The notes under the pieces: generated by a model
Seen by the model: only the letters and a program-made list of their open reading frames with translations
Databases searched by the model: none
Told to the model about the DNA's origin: nothing
IMG/VR virus record: IMGVR_UViG_3300035670_000177
Coordinates: 3,212 to 67,211 of that record
DNA: 64,000 bases
Source: a virus
Strand: one strand, 5' to 3'
Shown: positions 1,790-60,184 of the stretch, piece by piece
Numbering within the stretch: the stretch's first letter is position 1
Layout of the letters: each line of letters begins with the position of its first letter
Made by a program: the position numbers and the translations under genes

Positions 1790-2194
1790 TCAGAGAAATT
1801 TATTTTCTTCTTTATCAAAAATAGAGGATCCATTCCATTTAAAAGCCTTCTCTGTTTTCGATTCAAACATGTACCAAAACTCTAGTGCCAGTTGTTCATC
1901 AAAATCTTGTTTTGAATTTTTACCGTAGGTCTTGTTGTATAAAGAAGAAAGAGATTCTTTATCCCAAAGCAGAACGGCTTTCTCCATAGCATATGCTTGA
2001 TCTTCTGTTAGATTCTCAACAACCTTAAAAACATTGAATTTATATTTCCCATGTTTAAACAAATCCCTGTTCAGTTCAGCACAACTACTTCTTCCCGATG
2101 TGCAGTGTAACAATCTGTCCTTCTTCCCTTTTCCTACATAAACCAAAAGATCATTAACTACACAAGCATAAACATAATATTCTTTATTTATCAT
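1790..2194 (-). CDS. GIY-YIG family nuclease
   Basis: YYVY...VYVGKG...R..H, E in 'AYAMEK', and 'LYN' match the GIY-YIG motifs. Confidence 0.8.
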   Translation of the reverse strand: MINKEYYVYACVVNDLLVYVGKGKKDRLLHCTSGRSSCAELNRDLFKHGKYKFNVFKVVENLTEDQAYAMEKAVLLWDKESLSSLYNKTYGKNSKQDFDEQLALEFWYMFESKTEKAFKWNGSSIFDKEENKFL

Positions 2195-2259
2195 CTTTAT
2201 TATCTTATTTACTATTATTTCTTTAGTTATCTAATATTATTATTACTTAATCTTATATA

Positions 2260-2704
2260 CTTCCAAACTGAGTTCAGATAAGAACTTCAGATAAAAGAAA
2301 CCCTTACCCAGCCATACAAAGCTAACGCTCTGCCTAAGACTGAGTAGAGTACCTTATCTGATAGCTTTTATCTGCCTCTATCCGTTGTGAATAGATCTTC
2401 CAAACTTGAGACGAGATTAAGAGAGCCTTAGCTCTGTGGTCTGCACGGATAACACAGCCACCTTCAGGACAATGACACGTTCAAAGCATTGTCTTGCTAC
2501 ATTGCATATCGCACAGCCTTGACGGGCTGACAGGGAGGTAGTAGCTTTCAGTTTACCTTGCAGACTGTCCCATCACTCACAGTAGTCCGCTTGTTTAAGC
2601 TTATCGCTGCCAGGTCATGTAGGAAGCTTGTGTTTCCACAACACCACCACACTAGCCGACCAACATGCCGATTCACACAAAGCAGTGAACTCTTTTTAAC
2701 TAAC
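2260..2704 (-). ncRNA. structured RNA element copy 1 (promoter-driven, upstream of GIY-YIG)
   Basis: ORF-free; many stems; G-U pairs in the 3' hairpin (2300-2350) favour the minus strand; shares a core motif with 37532-37560. Confidence 0.65.
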
Positions 2705-2710
2705 CCATCT

Positions 2711-2739
2711 ATTATGACAGCTTTTTAAATAGATAGCAA
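2711..2739 (-). promoter_or_regulatory. extended -10 sigma70 promoter for RNA copy 1
   Basis: TTGCTA-17-CATAAT, TGn, followed by AGATG. Confidence 0.7.
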
Positions 2740-8288: not shown

Positions 8289-9092
8289 GTGGGAAGTCGT
8301 GAACGCATGATTATGATGGAAGTTGATGGTGTTGAGGTAGAGCTACCACGTAAGAGGACCAAAAAGACAAGGAATGGCGGTGTAAAACCTGAAATTAAGG
8401 AGAAGTTTGCAGAAGCTCGGAATAATCCACCTCCTGTAGTAGCTAAGACAGCAAAACAGAAGGAATATTTCAAACTGCTAGAAGATCCTGAAGTAAAAGC
8501 TATTGTCTGCCTAGGTCTGCATGGAACGGGGAAAACCTTTTGTGCTGCTGTAGTTGCGGCAGATAAGTTCCGTAAAAATGAGATTCAGCAAATCATTGTT
8601 GCTCGTGCTTATGTACAGACAGGCAAAACATCAGGCTATAAACCCGGCAGTAGTTTGCAGAAATTATATCCATATGTTCGAAATGTCCTTGATACAATTA
8701 AGAGTCGTATTGGCGATGGTGCTTACGAAGTTGCTTTGAAGGATGGGGAGTCTGGAGAAATTCAGGTACAAGAGGTTGAAAGTATCAGAGGTCGCTCCTT
8801 CGACCTGCCCAGCTATCTCATAATTGATGAAGCTCAACAAAGTACAGAAGAGGAAATGAAGAGTATCGTAACGCGGGTTTCTGATAATTGTAAGCTAATT
8901 CTATGCGGTGATATTTTGCAGAAGGATATTCAAGGCGAATCCGGTCTTGAATGGTTCATGAAATTCAGCAAACGACACAACTTGAAAGGCGTTGCTGTGA
9001 TTGACTTCTCAGATCCAAGCGAGATTGTACGTGGAGGGCTTGTTCGAGATATTGCGATTGGTTTAATGAAAGATAGAGAGAATAATGAATAA
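8289..9092 (+). CDS. phoH: PhoH family ATPase
   Basis: GLHGTGKT Walker A; RGRSF; IIDEAQ; CGD..Q.D; IVR. Confidence 0.95.
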   Translation: MGSRERMIMMEVDGVEVELPRKRTKKTRNGGVKPEIKEKFAEARNNPPPVVAKTAKQKEYFKLLEDPEVKAIVCLGLHGTGKTFCAAVVAADKFRKNEIQQIIVARAYVQTGKTSGYKPGSSLQKLYPYVRNVLDTIKSRIGDGAYEVALKDGESGEIQVQEVESIRGRSFDLPSYLIIDEAQQSTEEEMKSIVTRVSDNCKLILCGDILQKDIQGESGLEWFMKFSKRHNLKGVAVIDFSDPSEIVRGGLVRDIAIGLMKDRENNE

Positions 9093-10113
9093 TCAAGTTA
9101 AAGATATTGCAGGTGAGAGATTTGGTAGCCTTGTTGCAATAGAACCAACTGGAAAGTCTGACTCAAGTAGAAGTGCGATTTGGCTGTGTATTTGTGATTG
9201 TGGCAATGAGCACGAAGCTGTTTCTAAAAGCCTAAGAAGTGGTCATACAAAGTCGTGTGGGTGTTACTCTTTCAGGCCAAGGAAATACCAACCAGAAGTA
9301 GGAGTAACATACGGATACTTAACTTATGTAAGTGAAGCTCCAAGGATTGTTCGGCCGTCTAAAACTGTGAAGGCTGGTAATTTTACTTGTATTTGCGGAA
9401 AAGAGGTTGTAAAATCTTTTCAAGAAGTTTGTAGCGGAAACATCACCTCCTGCGGTTGTATGAAAGGTAAGGCTGGTATTGCAGATATAACGGGACAAAA
9501 ATTTGATCGACTTACTGCAATTAAAAGAACAGAGGAAAAACGTACTGGAGGATACTTCTGGGAGTGTGTATGTGACTGTGGTAATACAAGACTTGCTACC
9601 GTAGGTGCTTTAAACTCAGGACAAGCACGATCTTGTGGTTGTTTACGGGTTGATATGAATACTACTCATGGTATGACAAAAACTCCGACATATATGTCTT
9701 ACAGGAGTATGTTGGAAAGAGTCGGTAATCCTAAGTTTGACGAATGGTACAGCGATGTAGAAATTCACCCTGATTGGGATATGGATAAAGGAGGTTCTTT
9801 TGAAAATTTCTTACGAGACATGGGAGAACGGCCAGAAGGGACAAGTTTAAACAGGATTAACGGTGCTAAAATATATTCCAAGGATACTTGTGAATGGGCA
9901 ACTTTGAGCATGCAATCTTTTGATCAAAAGCGCAGCAAAGTTAACACATCAGGTCGAACTGGAGTGTTCCAAGTTAAAGAGACTGGAAGATGGGTGGCCC
10001 AAATCAAGAAAAATGGTAAAGTTATTCAGGTGTATAGGGGCGACTCTTTTGAAGAGGCCTGTGAAGCACGCACAAAAGCAGAAATTGAATATTTTGGATT
10101 TTCAAAGGAGTAA
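9085..10113 (+). CDS. HNH-AP2-type homing endonuclease with three Cys-rich repeats
   Basis: Repeated W.C.CDCG...SCGC units; F..DMGERP...L.RI...C.WAT; C-terminal GV...W.A.I...EEA..AR. Confidence 0.9.
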   Translation: MNNQVKDIAGERFGSLVAIEPTGKSDSSRSAIWLCICDCGNEHEAVSKSLRSGHTKSCGCYSFRPRKYQPEVGVTYGYLTYVSEAPRIVRPSKTVKAGNFTCICGKEVVKSFQEVCSGNITSCGCMKGKAGIADITGQKFDRLTAIKRTEEKRTGGYFWECVCDCGNTRLATVGALNSGQARSCGCLRVDMNTTHGMTKTPTYMSYRSMLERVGNPKFDEWYSDVEIHPDWDMDKGGSFENFLRDMGERPEGTSLNRINGAKIYSKDTCEWATLSMQSFDQKRSKVNTSGRTGVFQVKETGRWVAQIKKNGKVIQVYRGDSFEEACEARTKAEIEYFGFSKE

Positions 10114-15372: not shown

Positions 15373-15636
15373 ATGAAACCCTTCATAGCTTTTTCTTTCA
15401 TTATAGCTTTAACAGCATGTGCCAATACACAACCTAGATTGAATGGAAGTGGTACACAATATCAAGCTTGGCAAACACAAGTATTAGAAGAATGTGCTAG
15501 GAAAGCAGCTACAATTACTGTACAATTAATGGAAGAAAAGGCTAAGAATGGAATTTATTTGAATGTTGAGCAGGGATATGTTATAAACAGATATGTATTA
15601 GAGCTTTGTTATAAGAGGAATGGGATTGTAATATGA
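15373..15636 (+). CDS. putative lipoprotein
   Basis: Signal peptide with lipobox LTAC. Confidence 0.65.
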   Translation: MKPFIAFSFIIALTACANTQPRLNGSGTQYQAWQTQVLEECARKAATITVQLMEEKAKNGIYLNVEQGYVINRYVLELCYKRNGIVI

Positions 15637-16877
15637 AAATTAACGGGGAAGAAGAAATGAGTAACGAAAATTTTGAACTGATTGACAGTTTTGGTAAGCC
15701 TATTAAGGCTTGGACTAAAGGCGTTCCCGTAGAAGAGGCAGCTAAACAGCAACTACGAAATATTGCAAGTATGCCTTTCATCCATGAACACGTTGCAGTG
15801 ATGCCAGATGTGCACTTTGGTATGGGAGCTACAGTAGGTAGTGTAATTGCTACAACAGGTGCTATTATCCCAGCGGCAGTGGGTGTAGACATTGGTTGCG
15901 GAATGATCGCACAAGAAACGTCGCTACGAGCAAAAGACTTACCTGATAATCTTGCAGCTATTCGTTCAGATATTGAGCGTGCAATTCCTCATGGATTTGT
16001 CACAACTCCGGGACGAGCAATTAAAGGTGGTTGGGAAGTTGCACCAAACTCTGTTATCTCTCGCTACCGTGGGCTTGCAGATCGATACGAAAAGATTGTA
16101 GAAAAGCACCCCAAGATTAATCACAAAAGCCCTCTAAAACAAATGGGAAGTCTTGGTGGAGGAAATCACTTTATTGAAATCTGCCTCGATGAACGTGATG
16201 TAGTTTGGGTTATGCTTCATTCGGGCAGTCGAGGGCCGGGAAACAAGATTGGTGAATACTTTATTGAAAAAGCAAAAGAGGAAATGCTTAAAAACAATGT
16301 ACACCTTCTAGACAAAGATTTGTCTTATCTTGTAGAAGGCTCAGAGCTTTTTGAGGACTATTGCGAAGCTGTTTCATGGGCACAAGATTATGCTATGGAA
16401 AACCGTCTACAGATGATGGAACTAACTTTGTCGGTCCTTCGTAAGCACCTGCCGTCTTTCACACTAGCAAAAAGCGCTGTTAATGCCCACCACAACTATG
16501 TTTCAAAAGAACACCACTTTGGATCGGATGTATTGGTAACTCGTAAAGGTGCAGTAAAAGCAGGACTTGGTGATCTTGGTATTATTCCAGGCTCCATGGG
16601 TGCTAAAAGCTTTATTGTAAAAGGTAAAGGTAATAAAGAATCTTTCTGCTCTTGTTCTCATGGTGCTGGTCGTAAAATGAGTCGTGGGGAAGCAAAGCGA
16701 ACGTTCACAGTAGAAGACCATGTAAAAGCAACCAAGGGTGTTGAGTGCCGTAAAGATAAAGACGTTATCGATGAAACTCCAGCAGCTTACAAGGATATTG
16801 ATGCTGTAATGCTTGCTCAAGCTGATTTGGTAGAGGTATTGCACACACTACGCCAAGTTCTTTGTGTTAAGGGGTAG
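15633..16877 (+). CDS. rtcB: RtcB RNA ligase
   Basis: MPDVH.G.G, GVDIGCG, GGGNHF.E, HSGSRG, HHN, PGSMG, HGAGR, YKDI. Alternative start at 15657. Confidence 0.97.
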   Translation: MKINGEEEMSNENFELIDSFGKPIKAWTKGVPVEEAAKQQLRNIASMPFIHEHVAVMPDVHFGMGATVGSVIATTGAIIPAAVGVDIGCGMIAQETSLRAKDLPDNLAAIRSDIERAIPHGFVTTPGRAIKGGWEVAPNSVISRYRGLADRYEKIVEKHPKINHKSPLKQMGSLGGGNHFIEICLDERDVVWVMLHSGSRGPGNKIGEYFIEKAKEEMLKNNVHLLDKDLSYLVEGSELFEDYCEAVSWAQDYAMENRLQMMELTLSVLRKHLPSFTLAKSAVNAHHNYVSKEHHFGSDVLVTRKGAVKAGLGDLGIIPGSMGAKSFIVKGKGNKESFCSCSHGAGRKMSRGEAKRTFTVEDHVKATKGVECRKDKDVIDETPAAYKDIDAVMLAQADLVEVLHTLRQVLCVKG

Positions 16878-35990: not shown

Positions 35991-36729
35991 TCGTTTTCTC
36001 CTTTTATATTCTTCAATATTTTTGTTCCTAGCTTCTCGACAAGCTCTTTCTAAACCAGCGCCCACACGAGTCTATTCCTTCCCATCATGATTCTTAGGTC
36101 CATACTGATGAATGACCACTTGTTTACCTTTGTTCTTTTCATTGATGTAGATATCAATTGCATAGTATGCAGACTCAATATCTTTGTAATATTCATACCA
36201 ACCATGATTGATGTTAACCCAAAGAAAACCAAACTTCTTCATTTGAGGGTAATACCAATCACCCACCTGTTTAATTCGATATCTCATAGCCTAACTCCAC
36301 AATATCCAGCCACAATTATAATGACAAGTGCTAGACAGAAAGCCATAACACCGTAAGTCAACCCTTTAATCTCTTGTCTGCCAAAGATGTCAAATCCTGA
36401 TGCGATAGAGCACACACCAAACACAATACAAATGAAAGCTGCGATGTAAATAAAATCAGCCATCATTCACTCCAGTAAGTCAAGTCTTCAAGGACGGCTT
36501 CAACAGGATCATATTCAGAACGTTCCTCATACAAAGCTTCTGCAAATCCATAGGCTGTTACAGTGTCAACGCCTTTAGAATGATATGCGTTGAAGGCTTT
36601 AGCAATCCACATAATGCGTTCAACGTCTTGTTTGGTCATCATTTTGTGTAGGTTGGTCATTTCAGAATCCCCGAATAGTTTTGATGTGCTTATCATAGGA
36701 CAAAAGAAAAGGGCCGTCAAGGCCCCATT

Positions 36730-37407
36730 TTAAAAATTGTAGCTTTTTGATTTCTTACGCTGTAGGTTTACCTTGTTCAGCACAATGCGGTACTCTGCAA
36801 CCTCGTGATGGTATTCAACAAATTTATTCAGAAGCTCTTGATCCTCCATAATCCAAACCGTTGCATTGTCACCAGGATGATGAATAACTAGAGATTCGCT
36901 AGAAATGTTGTGAATGTCGATAAAATCCTTGACAATTTCATTGAACTGTTTAGGGTAGTGGTCAATGTGACTGTCTTTCTTCCTGACCTTTAAGTTTGTT
37001 TCTGGACAAATCACGTAACCTTTCGAATCACCGAACTCATTAAAATAGGTATCTTTATAATCAATTGTCTGATCGTTTATAGCTGCACGGAAGATATCTT
37101 TAATCTTACCTTCTTTTGATTGTGAACTAATTGCTTTCACATAACTAAAATCAGTTACAGAACCATCAGCACGAAGTACATAGAATTGACGATTACGAGG
37201 ATTGATTAGGCAAGTACGAACACCAATCTTATACCCATCTCCTTGAGTCTTTTCATCATAACAATCATGCATTTTAAGGACATCGTTAATTACTTCAAAC
37301 CACTCACCATACAACTCAGAATTAAGTTTTGCATTGTTTAGTACAAACTTACAATAATTCTTTAGTGTTTGTTTAGTTTTAAATTCCATACCACCAGCTT
37401 CTACCAT
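36730..37407 (-). CDS. DCL (DUF3223) domain protein with an HNH-like C-terminal domain
   Basis: H....K..G...I.V...R.F...R.DG...DFSY.K (DCL signature); C-terminal CPET...HIDH.P...YH...N. Confidence 0.75.
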   Translation of the reverse strand: MVEAGGMEFKTKQTLKNYCKFVLNNAKLNSELYGEWFEVINDVLKMHDCYDEKTQGDGYKIGVRTCLINPRNRQFYVLRADGSVTDFSYVKAISSQSKEGKIKDIFRAAINDQTIDYKDTYFNEFGDSKGYVICPETNLKVRKKDSHIDHYPKQFNEIVKDFIDIHNISSESLVIHHPGDNATVWIMEDQELLNKFVEYHHEVAEYRIVLNKVNLQRKKSKSYNF

Positions 37408-37484
37408 CTCTTTACTCTCTTTTATATTTACTTAGGTTTGTTTTACATCTTTATTTGTTTACTTATTCTTTATATCTAATACAT

Positions 37485-37859
37485 ATCGTCTTAGATTAAA
37501 GCTTAGGAAAGATAGATTTATCCCAGCAATTGCCATACAAGAGTATCCTCTTGCCTAGACAAAAGCTTAATCTATCTCTCCTAAGCTGTCAACATCTCAT
37601 CGTCTTGAGTTGTCGCCTAGGCCATCATTAGGACGGAAGCTACCTGTTTGTAAGCATAGCCAAGATTGCTCATCATTCCACACGAAAAAGATTGACGTGC
37701 GTCACCGATCCCCTATAATGAGCTTCGATTCAGGTTGGCCGAGGATCTTCCCTCTTCATAGCCTTTAAGACAGAGCCGGTGAGTGATAGCTAATTAGCTA
37801 GCCCTAAAACGGGCAAATGACATTTCTCTCTCTGTCCGATACGCCATAAAACAACGTAG
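37485..37859 (-). ncRNA. structured RNA element copy 2 (promoter-driven, upstream of DCL/HNH)
   Basis: ORF-free; many stems; 19 bp basal stem 37500-37587 with G-U on minus; shares a core motif with copy 1. Confidence 0.65.
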
Positions 37860-37865
37860 GCATCT

Positions 37866-37893
37866 ATTCTATCACGAATCACCTAGAATACAA
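37866..37893 (-). promoter_or_regulatory. extended -10 sigma70 promoter for RNA copy 2
   Basis: TTGTAT-16-TAGAAT, TGn, followed by AGATG. Confidence 0.65.
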
Positions 37894-37988
37894 GAGATAA
37901 ATATTCTTTTTATTCAGCCTTTAGGAGATATATTCTCTCTTATTTACACAATCTATCAACCCTACACCATCCTATTGAAAATCTTAAT

Positions 37989-38016
37989 TAGACTCCTAAG
38001 CCAAGAGGTGTAGAAT
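37989..38016 (+). promoter_or_regulatory. sigma70 promoter
   Basis: TAGACT-16-TAGAAT upstream of the CDS at 38053. Confidence 0.55.
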
Positions 38017-38052
38017 AGAACGTATCGAAAACACAAACACGGAGATATACAG

Positions 38053-41000
38053 ATGGAATACAAAATCACACAGAAAGTCCTTGATCTGGTAGAAAAATTA
38101 TTCAAAGAAGGCTACACTGGTACTGTTGAAATTACGAAAGGTTATGCAACAGGAACAGCAAAACACCTTGAAGATAGCCTGTCTGTACAGCTTTCCGGCT
38201 TCTGCAAGGAACATCTCTATATGGTAGAGACGGTAGGTGAAGGCTATGGTGCCAATTGCGTGATGTTCGTTGGTCGCTATGATGAGCTTGGTCTTGCTGA
38301 AGACCCCAATGTTGAAACTGTTGTTGACATCGCTTGGCGAAAATACAAGACTTACAAAGACCGTGGTTACGGTATGCCTAATGAATTCGAAAGTCTGTTT
38401 ATAAAATACGGCTACCTGAAGAAGAAGGTTGTTGAAGTCTACGAAGAACAAGACTAAACACCCCTTTTACCAGGGAAATACAGCTAAAATAAACGCTTTA
38501 GCACACAAGACATACAGAGCTTGCGCTTAGAGAAGAAATGCACTAGAATGTGTGAAAAACCTGAGGATAAACGTCTTTGACGTTAACGGAGATTTGTAAT
38601 GAAAGAAAAGCTGAAAACCTTGTTTGAAAATTACCGAGGCACTGATTGGGGAATGGCCGCTGAGAAAATTGGTGATAACGTTCTTGAAATTGTTCGAGAT
38701 TTTGAAGAGGAAGTTGCTAGAAACGACGAATGTTGGAATGCTGTCATCAACTACATGCTTGGTAAAGGTTACACAGAAGAACCTCTTGAATTCCTACGCT
38801 GTTGGAATGAAGGTAATTTCGATGCTTTGCGTGAAGAGTGGCCTGATGCACCAAAAGAAATTTACTATGCTGATCCTTTGTACAAAGGTGAATAAGGAGA
38901 ATTGAGATGAGTGTTTTAACCTACCAACCAAGTCCAGAGCTTGGAGAAGTGAAAGTCGGAGATATGGTCAGCACACACGACAGCCAAGGATTCTTGATGG
39001 GGATGGTACGTGTAACTAAAGTAGCTAAGAGTTACATCAAAACTGAATGTGGTCGCCAATGGACGGTTGATTATGGTGAGTGGATTGCTTGCTTCCATGG
39101 CAATAAACCAGAAAGCTACCCTTTCCCGAATATTCGTAAAGTATAAAGGAGATAAAAGATGAGTAAAATTACGCTGCTGTACTTCAAAGACACGGGCAAA
39201 TGGGCATACGAAGGCACCTTGGAATTCCCCGATGATGGGAATATGTACGAACTGCGGGACTTGGTGAAGTCACTGGAGGACCAGCGGAAGCTTCCCGGTC
39301 TTGCTTCCGGTTCATGGGATGGTCCAATCTATATTGATTCTTCTTTACATCCCAAAGGCTTTCCACAATTGATTCTGTAAACGCTTGACACAGACCACAG
39401 AATGATGTTTAATAAGCCTAACGAAACGAAATGAGGAAGCAGCATCATGAGACACGAAATAGCTATCGACAACATCATTCTGACCTGTGACATTCACAGC
39501 TACATCAAGAAGTCTCCTGATTTCAACACGCTTGATAGCGACTGGGATGCAAGGGGTTATGAAGAGCTTGACTTCACTGTTGAAAGTGCTCTTGAGCTTG
39601 ACGAAGACGGACTACCTTTTGATTTATCTTCGACTGAGATTGACAAGCTGATGGCTGATGAGTGGTTTGTGAAGCTTATGCAGGAACGGCTAAAGAAAGA
39701 GATTTTGAAAATTATTGAAGCTGAGAAGGAGAATGAATGATGAGCAAGATTACAGCGTTTAAAGATTTACTGAAGGTTGTTAAGAAACATAAAGATTTCC
39801 TGTCTGAGGAACAGTTGTATCTTAATCCTAAAACTCTTGAGGGCATGATTCGTGCTCTTGAAGTGAGCGAACGCTTCGGCGTTGAGCTTTCTCATACACA
39901 AGGCGGAGATTGGCTACAGCTTAAGAATGTCTACGATGAATGGACACGACTGGGGTTGTTTGGTGAGAAGTATGGTCGTACAATCTCCTGGTCAGACGAC
40001 GGCAGTCAGCCTGTAGATGAATGGCTGTTTAAGATCAGCTTTACAACCGGTGCTTATATCTTTGGTGAGGGCGGTCTTTTTGACAAGAGCTATCCAAAGA
40101 AAACCTTCGATGCGTTCTTTGCTGAGTTGAAATCCTTTGGACCTGTATTTGTAGATTCAGCTAACCATTCGCTGTATTTCCGTGAGGATAATTCTAAAGC
40201 TGTTTACGAAGCTTTTTGGGATATCTTCAATAAGTACAAGAAAATGGTAAGCGAAGAAATGAAAGAACAACGCAAGCAAGAGATACTTAAAGAGTTGGAA
40301 GGACTTCAATGATGAAAATCGTAGATTGGTTCTTCAATAATTGGTGGGGTGGCGTTATTCTAGCTACTCTTGTCTGCACAACAAGCGACATCATTGTGTT
40401 TGGTAATAAGGTGGAGTTTGCTAATACATACATAGAAGGCATTAAGCTTTGTGAGGAGAAGAGTAAGTCACAATGCCTGTTGATGGTGGTGCCTGTAGAT
40501 AAAATTAAAGGAGTTGAAGAGTGATTACTAAATTTGTAGATATTTTAATGCAACACCAAGAAGAATTGAAAGGATTTTTTGTAAAACATCCAGATAATTA
40601 CAAAGATATTGTAAAGGCTGTTATTAGCTTGATTAGTATGTATAATGATAGTTATGAATCGCCAGACCCTGATTTGATTCATGAGATTGATGACGGTGAT
40701 TATCAAGGAACTTTGGTATATATTATTGCATCAAAAGGCTATCAGCCTGACACATACTGGGCTGTGAAAGTAGGGTATGGTAGTTGCTCTGGTTGTGATA
40801 CACTGGAAGCTATTCGTGATTACAGCGATGATGTCCCGGATGAGCAACAGGTTAAAGATTACATGACTTTGTGCCTTCATATTATTCAAGGCTTGAAGGA
40901 AATCTAATGACATTCAAAGTAAACATTGAACACGGGGTCTGCGGAGCAGACAGTACAAGCCTGTACACAACAGATGAGCTTATTTCCTATGGGCTTTCTG

Positions 41001-59295: not shown

Positions 59296-59319
59296 AGCCC
59301 CTTAATTGGGGCTTTCTTT
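59296..59319 (+). terminator. intrinsic terminator
   Basis: AGCCCC-TTAATT-GGGGCT-TTCTTT. Confidence 0.8.
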
Positions 59320-59332
59320 GTTAGGAAAGTTT

Positions 59333-60184
59333 ATGATTACGGAGCAAGATTATTTTTGTGGAACCAAGTTTGGTCATGGGGACCATTTGGAAGTGGTTGG
59401 TTGGAAACCTAGTAATAACGGTAGATATAAAAAATACATTGTTAAATGCAGAGTTTGTGCATTGGATACTGAACTCTTTGGTGAGGGATTATTTGAAACA
59501 GAAAAAGGTAGCTTAGTTAAAGGGAAGATACCATGCGGTTGCAGTAAATACTACTCCCCTACAGAGAGTCAATTCTTGATCCTATGCGCTAGGGCAGAGC
59601 GAACGGCCAAATTTAAATTTATAGGATTGGCAGAGGATTATAAAGGTAAGAATACAAAACTATTATTGCTTTGTGACAATGGACATTTTTCAAAAGAAAT
59701 CCTTTATTCTTATCAGGCGTTTGGTGGGCGTTGTAAAGAGTGTGTTAACGAGAGAGTTAGGTTAAAAGAAGATGAAATGGTTCGCAGGTGTATGTCCACT
59801 GGTAATTTTCCAGAAGGTACAACATTTAAGAGGTATTTAGATTATAGTAATAAGTCACCAAGCCTATTTTGGAAAGTTTATTGTCCCGATTGTGAAGAGG
59901 TTAGTATTTCTCGTGCTCATAATTTAATGAATGGACACAGGCCTTGCAGTTGTAGAAGGAGCTATTCACCCCCATCTTTTGCGTACATAGATTATATTAT
60001 GTCAAGTCATTTAGGGCCTTTTGCAATTAAATTTGGTATTACTAATTTTCCAGCAAAGCGATTGCACAGCTTAACTAGAGATTGCACTTATATAGTACAG
60101 TCTAGCTCTCTTTGGTATTTTGAGGATACAATAGAAAAGATTTTTATGAATTTTGGAGGGGTAAGGTTGACTGAGCCAGGATAA
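59333..60184 (+). CDS. Cys-rich homing-endonuclease-like protein with an apparently shortened GIY-YIG/T5orf172-like domain
   Basis: Repeated C..C/PC.C units; Y...IKFGIT....R followed by an abrupt end. Confidence 0.7.
   Translation: MITEQDYFCGTKFGHGDHLEVVGWKPSNNGRYKKYIVKCRVCALDTELFGEGLFETEKGSLVKGKIPCGCSKYYSPTESQFLILCARAERTAKFKFIGLAEDYKGKNTKLLLLCDNGHFSKEILYSYQAFGGRCKECVNERVRLKEDEMVRRCMSTGNFPEGTTFKRYLDYSNKSPSLFWKVYCPDCEEVSISRAHNLMNGHRPCSCRRSYSPPSFAYIDYIMSSHLGPFAIKFGITNFPAKRLHSLTRDCTYIVQSSSLWYFEDTIEKIFMNFGGVRLTEPG

What the first reader, a model, noticed from the sequence alone, without database searches (positions are those of the whole stretch)
36730..37893. Copy 2 of the RNA cassette precedes a DCL(DUF3223)-HNH-like protein
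Seen: a 19 bp basal stem AGCUUAGGAGAGAUAGAUU/AAUCUAUCUUUCCUAAGCU (37500-37587) carries the shared apex motif. Upstream stems include GACAGAG/CUCUGUC, GCCC/GGGC, GAGG/CCUC, GCUCAUUAU/AUGAUGAGC and ACCUG/CAGGU. The downstream ORF has the DCL signature plus an HNH-like HIDH...N tail, and the unit closes at the terminator near 36701-36725. Established: DCL domains are linked to plastid rRNA processing and occur in plant Pol IV/V C-terminal regions. Inference: an RNA-linked domain fused to a nuclease and co-transcribed with a structured RNA is a good ribonucleoprotein candidate. However, the same RNA motif paired with unrelated nuclease folds suggests a shared factor (replisome or host protein) may read the motif and the nucleases are interchangeable cargo.
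Basis: partly seen in the sequence, partly recalled or inferred. Interest (0 to 1): 0.82.

Follow-up and report, generated by a model that had tools for sequence, protein, structure and literature searches.

The report
Phage leader RNA beside swappable nuclease genes
A real, previously uncatalogued structured RNA of about 400 bases heads an early phage operon, and the DCL-domain gene behind it is one of many swappable genes found at that spot, not a dedicated protein partner of the RNA.

Summary
The 19-bp hairpin at 37500-37587 is real (z = -8.4). The ORF has a DUF3223/DCL domain, and a terminator closes the unit.

The 645-nt gap holds a structured RNA of about 430 nt with strong covariation: 18 of 65 pairs have compensatory changes, against 0-3 in slid controls. 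It matches no Rfam 15 family.

I found 14 loci of this RNA family, in three subtypes. They include the cultured Pseudomonas phages vB_PpS_SYP and phiPMW. Each RNA sits behind a sigma70-like promoter at the head of an early operon.

The gene directly behind the RNA varies. Of 12 readable loci, 7 carry HNH, NUMOD4-HNH_3, CapR-domain, GIY-YIG-like or the HamC-like DCL protein. Five carry no nuclease-like gene.

Conversely, none of 53 viral loci encoding relatives of the DCL protein, nor phage AP-16-3, has this RNA.

The HNH-like tail is unproven: there is no Pfam HNH hit and no HNH fold match. The RNA's function is open. Direct repeats that evolve in concert flank the hairpin and remain unexplained.

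The parts
37866..37893 (-). Likely promoter of the RNA: TTGTAT, 16-nt spacer, TG-n-TAGAAT (extended -10 type)
   Evidence: Read from the sequence. The scan's stricter rule did not list it and instead lists TTGATA-16-GAGAAT at 37959-37932. Homologous loci have consensus promoters at the same place: TTGACA-17-TATAGT in SYP and L191, TTGACA-18-TATACT in phiPMW.
37429..37865 (-). Structured leader RNA, type A ('copy 2'), about 430 nt
   Evidence: 65 consensus pairs with SYP, 18 compensatory, against 0-3 in slid controls. z = -4.28 for 37408-37900. No ORF of 40 aa or more on this strand. No Rfam family. One contig of an RNA-seq library is 437 nt long and spans exactly 37429-37865, with 17 differences.
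37768..37837 (-). 5' helix GGACAGAG/CUCUGUCU enclosing the conserved strands AGAGAAAUGUC and CACUCACCGG
   Evidence: Kept in all 4 type A/A2 sequences, with compensatory changes at 4 pairs.
37730..37768 (-). Conserved core UUAAAGGC...AAGAGGGAAGAUC...GGCCAACCUGA
   Evidence: Nearly identical in SYP. The blastn hit to SYP covers this stretch.
37660..37667 (-). Guide-like strand AAUCUUGG, complementary to both direct repeats
   Evidence: The consensus fold pairs it with repeat 2. SYP has AAUCUUAC with GUGAG, giving one compensatory and two one-sided changes. No equivalent partner was found in the other subtypes.
37599..37609 (-). Direct repeat 1 (CUCAAGACGAU)
   Evidence: A repeat pair flanks the hairpin in all 12 members checked.
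37500..37587 (-). Terminal hairpin with 19-bp basal stem; apex motif UAGGCA-[4-bp stem, NNUR loop]-UUGUAUGG at 37533-37557
   Evidence: The apex motif is shared with copy 1 and 9 other loci.
37485..37494 (-). Direct repeat 2 (CUAAGACGAU)
   Evidence: In SYP, L191 and phiPMW the Shine-Dalgarno sequence of the first ORF lies 0-6 nt behind this repeat.
36730..37407 (-). 225-aa HamC-like protein: DCL/DUF3223 domain (about residues 1-95) plus an uncharacterised C-terminal domain (96-225) with conserved R107, C134, H147, D149, H150, P152, F155, H200, N214
   Evidence: Pfam. PADLOC HamC PDLC00202, E = 1.1e-28, residues 8-217. AF2 pLDDT 94.7. Foldseek to 2k0m, E = 9e-6. Alignments A4 and A6.
36700..36726 (-). 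Intrinsic terminator closing the unit
36692..36720 (-). Promoter-like site TTGACG-17-TATGAT (10 of 12) overlapping the terminator, ahead of the next early genes
   Evidence: Consensus match only.
2232..2715 (-). Copy 1 of the RNA (type B) behind TTGCTA-17-CATAAT
   Evidence: 123 consensus pairs in 6 sequences, 20 compensatory, against 1-4 in slid controls. CM hit at 154 bits.
1790..2194 (-). 134-aa ORF behind copy 1, weakly GIY-YIG-like
   Evidence: Pfam GIY-YIG E = 0.063 and LEM-3_GIY-YIG E = 0.028, both below their cut-offs.

Best explanation
The gap 37408-38052 encodes a structured RNA of about 430 nt on the minus strand. It is made from its own sigma70-type promoter in a region where transcription diverges.

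The RNA belongs to a family that Rfam does not hold. I found 14 loci in 13 phage records, in subtypes A, A2 and B. The family RNA always stands first in an early operon.

Its parts, in order, are:
- a covarying 5' helix around strictly conserved single strands;
- a variable middle domain;
- a long hairpin whose tip carries a conserved internal-loop motif;
- two direct repeats flanking that hairpin.

The 225-aa gene behind it encodes a full-length HamC-like protein: a DCL/DUF3223 domain plus an uncharacterised metal-site-like domain. In this phage it occupies a variable slot between the RNA and the conserved early genes. In other members the slot holds homing-endonuclease-type genes of at least four kinds, or nothing.

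Shown: RNA and protein are neighbours because the slot behind this RNA is a landing place for selfish or accessory genes. They are not two halves of one machine.

Inferred: the slot attracts such genes because it offers a strong early promoter and lies next to a highly conserved DNA stretch. This is the usual setting for free-standing homing endonuclease genes, and their cleavage site may lie in the RNA gene itself.

Inferred, weaker (about 35%): the RNA acts in cis on what follows it. In members without an insert, the ribosome-binding site of the first gene sits directly behind repeat 2. In type A, a guide-like strand can pair with either repeat, which would let the fold hide or expose that site. 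The long perfect stem is also a plausible RNase III site separating the RNA from the mRNA.
For: RNA is real:
- Type A has 18 of 65 pairs with changes on both sides, against 0-3 in six slid controls, and 100% of cells paired.
- Type B has 20 of 123, against 1-4, with 98.8% paired against 36-40%.
- No ORF of 40 aa or more lies on that strand.
- The hairpin has z = -8.36.

Family. Members were found with DNA patterns and checked by eye, nhmmer or the covariance model (CM):
- 3 of 3 viral stretches;
- 4 of 7 metagenome stretches;
- 4 of 4 and 3 of 3;
- SYP and phiPMW.

The slot varies across the 12 loci whose downstream gene can be read:
- HamC-like (window A);
- weak GIY-YIG-like (window B);
- CapR-domain proteins (SYP, L020), a domain of putative T5orf172/GIY-YIG-type homing endonucleases according to passages of PMC8096241;
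- HNH (L086, which appears from the sequence to have its own promoter; L125, weak);
- NUMOD4-HNH_3 (L131);
- no nuclease-like gene in L124 (91 aa, no family), L127, L190, L191 and phiPMW.

Synteny:
- Among type B loci, L020, L124, L127 and L190 share a conserved 64-aa CxxC protein downstream. L131 and the window share a second one.
- L191 and SYP both run on to a Band-7 gene.

The protein is independent of the RNA:
- 0 of 53 viral loci with relatives gave an nhmmer hit at E <= 10.
- 0 of 54 (these plus AP-16-3) gave a CM hit at E < 0.01; the best was E = 0.062, and it was not upstream.
- L132, L133, L134 and L136 lie directly behind an HTH-type ORF.
- The complete 99.6-kb phage G004 has the protein and no RNA.

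One unit: a terminator follows the ORF, and the scan found no sigma70-like site on the minus strand between RNA and ORF. A DNA contig of a 94%-identical relative keeps both (X6).
Against: - The HamC-like protein is not a proven nuclease or homing endonuclease. In L132-L134 it sits in what looks like a stable operon, so 'selfish insert' may be the wrong label for it.
- Only two loci show the full type A core and apex motif (the window and SYP). The three A2 records share only its 5' core. The slot argument therefore rests mostly on type B.
- Contexts of the closest protein homologues (62-78% identity) could not be fetched, so a lineage-specific RNA-protein pairing is not excluded.
- In the one close relative seen (X6) RNA and ORF stay together.
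- RNA-library contigs break at 37836-37848. This would also fit a mobile RNA-plus-ORF cassette.
- The CM covers only the hairpin and repeats, and the nhmmer profiles are specific to these RNA types. A different RNA upstream of the homologues would be missed. ORF maps were read for only 5 of the 53 loci.
- The cis-regulatory model is untested. No common pairing partner for the repeats was found across subtypes.
Confidence: 0.7

Rival explanations
1. Dedicated ribonucleoprotein. The RNA is bound by the DCL domain and guides, activates or scaffolds the nuclease domain of the protein made from the same transcript.
For: - RNA and ORF lie in one unit.
- DCL domains occur in RNA-linked contexts, namely the Pol IV/V C-termini. 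The plastid rRNA processing link is recalled, not tested.
- RNA and ORF stay together in a 94%-identical relative.
- A guide-like strand and repeats exist.
Against: - 0 of 54 loci with protein relatives have the RNA.
- 11 of 12 readable RNA loci lack this protein. They carry unrelated genes or none.
- The guide-like strand pairs within the RNA itself.
Confidence: 0.06
2. Intron-like or otherwise mobile RNA element. The RNA would be a ribozyme or mobile cassette that carries homing endonuclease genes, as group I introns do. The repeats and guide strand would mark processing or splice sites.
For: - One RNA fold appears with several endonuclease families.
- Contigs of relatives break at the RNA's 5' edge. 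One joint skips 36661-37835, with the letters between not known.
- The window phage has two copies, where three complete relatives and SYP have one each.
- The repeats evolve in concert.
- The phage encodes an RtcB ligase.
Against: - No group I, group II or small-ribozyme model of Rfam matches, even at E <= 10 in the 801-nt stretch or E <= 1 in five other loci.
- No host gene is interrupted. The RNA lies in a 5' leader.
- The RNA occurs without any endonuclease gene.
- The only RNA-library contig over it is colinear with the DNA.
- Its position is syntenic among relatives.
Confidence: 0.08
3. Trans-acting stable RNA. The RNA would be a product in its own right, for example a decoy or inhibitor of a host factor, or an assembly-forming ornate RNA like the large phage RNAs of unknown role. 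Its place before the early genes would be only a matter of timing.
For: - It is large, with many conserved single strands and a possible tertiary-contact motif at the hairpin tip.
- It has its own strong promoter.
- A 437-nt contig in an RNA library matches just the RNA.
- In L086 and L190 a further promoter-like site, read from the sequence, lies between the RNA and the next gene.
Against: - No match to GOLLD, ROOL, OLE, 6S or other Rfam models.
- In SYP, L191 and phiPMW the first gene's ribosome site abuts the RNA, which suggests coupling in cis.
- Contigs cannot show RNA ends or abundance.
Confidence: 0.15

Closest known systems
Free-standing homing endonuclease genes in intergenic slots of lytic phages (seg/mob genes of T4-like phages, recalled; putative CapR/T5orf172 homing genes of ICP1, passages of PMC8096241)
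   Same: Among close relatives, one intergenic position beside conserved sequence holds unrelated endonuclease genes (HNH, NUMOD4-HNH_3, GIY-YIG-like, CapR-domain) or none.
   Different: The conserved neighbour is a structured RNA gene, not a protein gene. No cleavage site or homing has been shown. The window's occupant is a HamC-like protein that is not a known homing enzyme.
HamC, the DUF3223 accessory protein of type II Hachiman defence (PADLOC; passages of PMC8565338 and PMC11914072)
   Same: Full-length profile match, E = 1.1e-28, covering both domains.
   Different: It is encoded by a phage. No hamA or hamB gene lies beside it: the flanking ORFs are 85 and 134 aa with no family. The function of HamC itself is unknown.
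DCL / DUF3223 domain (PDB 2k0m; C-termini of plant NRPD1 and NRPE1)
   Same: The N-terminal 95 residues match by sequence (E = 3e-8 to 2e-4) and by fold (TM 0.77 on the target, rmsd 1.6).
   Different: It is fused to a 130-residue domain with no solved relative.
Leader-derived regulatory RNAs of phages P1/P7 (c4) and P4 (CI), in which one strand pairs with two repeated target sites in the same transcript (recalled)
   Same: A leader RNA behind an early promoter, with a strand complementary to two direct repeats. One repeat lies at the ribosome site of the next gene.
   Different: It is four to five times larger. Both repeats lie downstream of the guide-like strand and flank a hairpin. Rfam's models gave no match. 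The pairing is supported only in type A.
Large ornate phage-associated RNAs of unknown function (GOLLD, ROOL; recalled)
   Same: A several-hundred-nucleotide, highly structured, phage-borne RNA of unknown role.
   Different: No similarity by covariance model. It has a fixed position as an operon leader.

Membership tests
DUF3223 / DCL domain (PF11523) | Profile match above Pfam's gathering score | tested here: met
   40.9 bits against a cut-off of 21, residues 22-93.
DUF3223 / DCL domain (PF11523) | Fold of the solved representative 2k0m | tested here: met
   Foldseek E = 9.1e-6, TM 0.77 on the target, rmsd 1.6 over 91 columns.
HamC of type II Hachiman | Match to the HamC profiles | tested here: met
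   PDLC00202 E = 1.1e-28, residues 8-217 of 225. Four further HamC models also match.
HamC of type II Hachiman | Encoded next to hamA (DUF1837) and hamB (helicase) | tested here: not met
   The neighbours are ORFs of 85 and 134 aa with no Pfam or PHROG family. It is a phage gene.
HNH / His-Me finger nuclease | Match to an HNH-type profile | tested here: not met
   No HNH model at E <= 1 in Pfam. hhalign against a real HNH protein aligns only 19 columns (C..HIDH.P), probability 5%.
HNH / His-Me finger nuclease | Beta-beta-alpha metal finger fold | tested here: inconclusive
   The confident model (pLDDT 92.9) has no PDB match at E <= 0.001. None of the 49 matches listed, of 87 at E <= 10, is titled as an HNH enzyme. 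BFVD gives only uncharacterised relatives. Small motifs can escape Foldseek. The language-model neighbours carry HNH in 11-28% of members at scores of 0.86-0.88, which is a lead only.
HNH / His-Me finger nuclease | Catalytic His, metal-binding Asn/His in the order H..N..H | tested here: inconclusive
   H147, D149, H150, H200 and N214 are conserved. About 50 residues separate HIDH from H200 and N214, and the order is H..H..N.
Free-standing homing endonuclease gene | Sporadic presence at one locus among close relatives | tested here: met
   This holds for the slot: 7 of 12 loci are occupied by 5 kinds of gene and 5 of 12 are not. For the HamC-like gene itself there is only one such locus.
Free-standing homing endonuclease gene | Cuts the insert-free allele and spreads by repair | not testable with these tools
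   Needs cleavage and co-infection assays.
Group I / group II intron | Match to the ribozyme core models | tested here: not met
   No Rfam match at the gathering score in the window, at E <= 10 in 37300-38100, or at E <= 1 in five other loci.
Group I / group II intron | Interrupts a gene whose exons are joined | tested here: not met
   The RNA starts about 25 nt behind a promoter in a divergent intergenic region. The RNA-library contig is colinear with the DNA.
Any Rfam 15 family (including GOLLD, ROOL, HEARO, C4, 6S) | Covariance-model match | tested here: not met
   The best hit is a chance MIR390 match at 24.8 bits against a gathering score of 77.
11-nt tetraloop-receptor-like motif | CCUAAG...UAUGG internal loop docking a GAAA loop | not tested
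   The resemblance is recalled: UAUGG on the 3' strand and CUAGG or CUUAGG on the 5' strand. GAAA or GCAA loops cap a 5' hairpin in only 2 type B members.

The most novel reading that the evidence does not exclude
The RNA is a new class of large early-leader RNA of lytic phages that works through its own fold. A guide-like strand would choose between two direct repeats that evolve in concert on either side of a receptor-bearing hairpin. That choice would either toggle translation of the first early gene or direct processing that frees the hairpin or separates the RNA from the mRNA. The RNA's highly conserved DNA would be the homing target that has drawn at least five nuclease families to the same slot.
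Probability: 0.3. Interest if true: 0.8.

Novelty: new variant of a known kind. Interest (0 to 1): 0.55.

Why it matters
- It removes a tempting false lead, an RNA-guided DCL-HNH enzyme.
- It replaces that lead with two testable things.
- The first is an uncatalogued, strongly covarying RNA family of 330-450 nt. It is present in two cultured Pseudomonas phages, phiPMW and vB_PpS_SYP, where current records annotate it as protein-coding.
- The second is a clear example of an RNA gene serving as the anchor of a hot spot for homing-endonuclease-type genes.
- If the repeats and guide strand form a switch or processing signal, this would be a new way for phages to control their earliest genes.
- It also shows that HamC-like proteins are common phage genes. 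That bears on what HamC does in type II Hachiman defence.

Tried and rejected
- Sequence search for more copies inside the window: blastn with word size 7 found only the self match and the hairpin's own arms. Copy 1 was found by reading the sequence and confirmed with the covariance model.
From the printed contexts, only L020 and L086 looked like the RNA. That judgement was by eye.
- Pattern AAGATCNNNGGCCAACCTGA gave 4 stretches, none of them the RNA.
- The genome-contig scan gave 4 stretches. None matched beyond the pattern itself. L197 matched only the 49 nt around the motif (E = 0.004) and was not examined further.
- blastn of the type B RNA against isolated phages found no match.
- Homologues of the two flanking genes were sought in G001-G003 and SYP and not found.
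- A common pairing partner for the direct repeats was sought with RNAduplex in 9 members. Partners and positions differed and energies were modest (-6.6 to -14.3 kcal/mol), so this supports no model.
- Full-length covariance models were not built. The tool times out on models over about 190 positions, so only the 145-position hairpin model R1 exists.
- Read laying gave contigs only, so no RNA ends, strand or level. The parts without cover and the small-share runs are not used as evidence. The joint 36660-37836 has 'between: not known' and a side of 30, so it is not evidence of a precise deletion.
The contexts of the 41 database homologues therefore could not be seen.
- Supplementary files of papers were not opened.
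- The phiPMW genome paper (PMC5587285, passages by term search) has no 'ncRNA', 'riboswitch' or 'gp181' and one unrelated 'non-coding'.
- Literature searches run: 'DUF3223'; 'CapR homology domain'; 'free-standing homing endonuclease' with 'noncoding RNA' and 'bacteriophage'; 'phiPMW'. None of the listings or passages I saw describes this RNA. I read no paper in full.
Full report
**Setting.** The window is bases 3212-67211 of a 67-kb IMG/VR virus record judged 76% complete. Its G+C content is 39%. It encodes a DNA polymerase, a primase-helicase, a ribonucleotide reductase, an RtcB ligase and several HNH genes.

Minus-strand genes run from 37407 down to about 31400, and plus-strand genes start at 38053. 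The 645-nt gap 37408-38052 is therefore a region of divergent transcription.

**The observation.** The hairpin is as described.
- The arms 37500-37518 and 37569-37587 form 19 pairs, one of them G-U. This is the best inverted repeat among the 5 found in the window.
- The 98-nt hairpin folds at -45.7 kcal/mol, against -21.1 +/- 2.9 for shuffles, so z = -8.36.
- The larger stretch 37408-37900 has z = -4.28.
- The ORF 36730-37407 (225 aa) carries Pfam DUF3223 above its threshold.
- The only terminator-like site in 36400-38200 lies at 36726-36710, directly behind the ORF.
GACAGAG/CUCUGUC has four compensatory pairs, and GCUCAUUAU/AUGAUGAGC is kept in part (6 consensus pairs, two compensatory).
- GCCC/GGGC sits in an insert found only in the window.
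- GAGG/CCUC and ACCUG/CAGGU are not conserved.

**The RNA is real and forms a family.** A blastn search of isolated phages matched 80 nt of the gap to Pseudomonas phage vB_PpS_SYP. Reading that locus showed the same RNA behind a consensus promoter.

The consensus fold of the two sequences has 65 pairs, 18 of them with changes on both sides. Six controls with slid partners gave 0-3. All cells are paired, against 39-47% in the controls.

Copy 1 in the window (2232-2715, minus strand) shares little sequence with copy 2. It has the same hairpin-tip motif, TAGGCA-N11-TTGTATGG.

A degenerate form of that motif found further members:
- 3 of 3 true members in viral contigs;
- 4 of 7 in metagenome contigs.

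Blocks of the two 5' cores found L190, then L191 (identical to L193) and L192. blastn with L191 found phage phiPMW.

For six type B sequences the consensus fold has 123 pairs, 20 of them compensatory, against 1-4 in slid controls.

In all there are 14 loci in 13 records, in three subtypes:
- Type A: window copy 2 and SYP.
- Type A2: L191/L193, L192 and phiPMW. These share the 5' core of type A but have a different hairpin tip.
- Type B: window copy 1, L020, L086, L124, L125, L127, L130, L131 and L190.

A covariance model of the hairpin and its flanks finds two copies in the window and none elsewhere in it. It finds one copy in each of three complete 86-89-kb relatives and in SYP.

No Rfam 15 family matches any member. 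The records of SYP and phiPMW annotate hypothetical proteins over the RNA. The window has no ORF of 40 aa or more there on that strand.

**Expression.** All runs laid were contigs, so RNA ends and levels cannot be read. One contig of an RNA-seq library is 437 nt long and matches exactly 37429-37865, with 17 differences. Other contigs of relatives stop matching at 37836-37848, the RNA's 5' edge.

This is a weak hint of a discrete transcript and of mosaic exchange at the RNA's border, no more. A DNA contig of a 94%-identical relative keeps both RNA and ORF.

**What lies behind the RNA.** I listed the ORFs downstream of each locus and scanned them against Pfam.

| Locus | Gene directly behind the RNA |
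|---|---|
| Window A | HamC-like DCL protein |
| Window B | 134 aa, GIY-YIG-like below the Pfam cut-off |
| SYP, L020 | about 330 aa with a CapR homology domain |
| L086 | HNH, behind a promoter-like site read from the sequence |
| L125 | HNH, just below the cut-off |
| L131 | NUMOD4 plus HNH_3 |
| L124 | 91 aa, no family; a NUMOD4-HNH_3 gene lies two genes further on |
| L127, L190 | no insert; the RNA is followed by a conserved 64-aa CxxC protein |
| L191 | 105 aa, no family |
| phiPMW | 67-aa gp182 |
| L130, L192 | cut off |

Passages of PMC8096241 describe the CapR homology domain as part of putative T5orf172/GIY-YIG-type homing endonucleases of phage ICP1.

So 7 of 12 readable loci carry a nuclease-like or homing-type gene of five kinds, and 5 of 12 carry none. 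The genes further downstream are shared:
- the CxxC protein among type B loci;
- a Band-7 gene in SYP and L191.

Homology among type B loci ends 10-45 nt behind the second repeat. This is the pattern of free-standing homing endonuclease genes occupying one intergenic slot.

**The protein.**
- The 225-aa protein has 41 homologues of 46-78% identity in the large protein database, nearly all about 225 aa.
- It matches PADLOC's HamC models over its full length, with E = 1.1e-28. HamC is the DUF3223 accessory protein that Payne et al. found with 3.8% of Hachiman systems (passages).
- The AlphaFold model is confident, with pLDDT 94.7.
- Its N-terminal domain matches 2k0m, and by sequence the C-terminal regions of plant Pol IV and Pol V largest subunits.
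- The C-terminal 130 residues keep R107, C134, H147, D149, H150, P152, F155, H200 and N214 across 19 diverse relatives.
- Folded alone, that domain is again confident (pLDDT 92.9). It has no PDB match at E <= 0.001, and none of the listed matches is titled as an HNH enzyme. BFVD returns only uncharacterised phage relatives.
- No Pfam HNH model hits.
- hhalign against a true HNH protein aligns only the 19 columns around C..HIDH.P, at 5% probability.
- A language-model search gives HNH-tinged neighbours at 0.86-0.88, below the level that counts.

The tail is therefore a conserved, probably metal-binding domain with half of an HNH-like motif. Nuclease activity is possible but unshown.

**Do the protein's relatives have the RNA?** The search for related loci gave 53 viral loci.
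- nhmmer with profiles of types A and B found nothing at E <= 10, while finding all positives.
- The covariance model found nothing at E < 0.01 in these loci or in phage AP-16-3. Its best hit was E = 0.062, and that was not upstream.
- I read ORF maps for the five nearest loci. L132, L133, L134 and L136 (44-61% identity) follow an HTH-type ORF within about 50 nt. L135 follows a 96-nt gap.
- In AP-16-3 the gene overlaps its neighbours in a co-directional operon.
- The complete 99.6-kb phage holding L134 has no copy of the RNA.

There are limits. The searches detect only this RNA family, and the contexts of the closest homologues (62-78% identity) could not be fetched.

**How it most likely works.**

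Shown:
- The RNA is a conserved, structured first element of an early transcription unit.
- The gene behind it is exchangeable.

Inferred:
- The slot collects selfish or accessory genes because it lies behind a strong early promoter and beside very conserved DNA. Their target may be the RNA gene itself.

In the window the unit is self-contained. It has a promoter, the RNA, the ORF and a terminator. A further promoter-like site at 36720-36692 could serve the following genes.

For the RNA itself I favour a role in cis, at about 35%. In SYP, L191 and phiPMW the Shine-Dalgarno sequence of the first gene lies 0-6 nt behind repeat 2. In type A the strand AAUCUUGG (AAUCUUAC in SYP) can pair with either repeat, with one compensatory change. 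The 19-25-bp basal stem would suit RNase III.

**An unexplained feature.** In all 12 members checked, a direct repeat of 8-12 nt flanks the hairpin. The repeat differs between members but is the same on both sides within each:
- AAGACGAU
- AGUGAGAC
- UCUGAGCAUAUU
- UUGAGCAUAU
- UGAGCAUGA
- AGUUUGGAAG
- AGUUGGAAG
- AGUUGAAA
- AGUUAGAA

Within type B there are four parallel changes in both copies. I found no partner common to all subtypes.

**Comparison and novelty.** The nuclease side is the known biology of free-standing homing genes, with an unusual anchor (an RNA gene) and an unusual occupant (a HamC-like protein). The RNA is not in Rfam. It was not mentioned in the passages of the phiPMW paper that I searched.

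I rate the whole as a new variant of a known kind. The RNA could prove to be more than that.

Noticed in passing
window 37599-37609 and 37485-37494; window 2232-2690; L191, L192, L198, L020, L124, L190: Direct repeats of 8-12 nt flank the terminal hairpin in every member checked. They differ between members but change in parallel on both sides (four parallel changes within type B). No common pairing partner was found.
   Followed up: partly
L002 2434-2679 (-) and L198 2314-2703 (+): The GenBank records of phages SYP (gene _113) and phiPMW (gp181) annotate hypothetical proteins over the structured RNA. The window has no matching ORF, so these calls are probably spurious.
   Followed up: partly
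window 15633-16877 (+): The phage encodes an RtcB-type RNA ligase (phrog_1075, E = 2.6e-147). It joins 2',3'-cyclic phosphate and 5'-OH ends (recalled), which is of interest if the leader RNA is cut.
   Followed up: no
window 9085-10113 (+) and 59306-60184 (+): Two further HNH/endonuclease genes lie in the same phage, so homing-type genes are frequent in this genome.
   Followed up: no
window 36692-36720 (-): A 10-of-12 sigma70-like site overlaps the terminator behind the ORF. The RNA-ORF unit may therefore have been inserted upstream of an existing promoter for the next early genes.
   Followed up: no
window 37483-37529: A 1351-nt contig of a metatranscriptome (X16) shares only these 47 nt (the 3' half of the hairpin plus repeat 2) at 100% identity, with unlike sequence on both sides. 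This hints at a further RNA variant or a recombinant.
   Followed up: no
L136 3705-4844 (+): In this 86-kb viral contig the HamC-like gene is followed directly by a CapR-domain (homing-type) gene.
   Followed up: no
L139 3265-3651 (+): This relative of the DCL protein has a stop codon inside the aligned C-terminal part, so it may be broken.
   Followed up: no
L191 4866-4900, L198 2730-2766, L192: Type A2 hairpin tips carry the internal loop on the opposite strand (CCCUUGG...CCCUAAAGGGG) compared with types A and B (CUAGGCA...UGUAUGG), as if the same motif were flipped.
   Followed up: no
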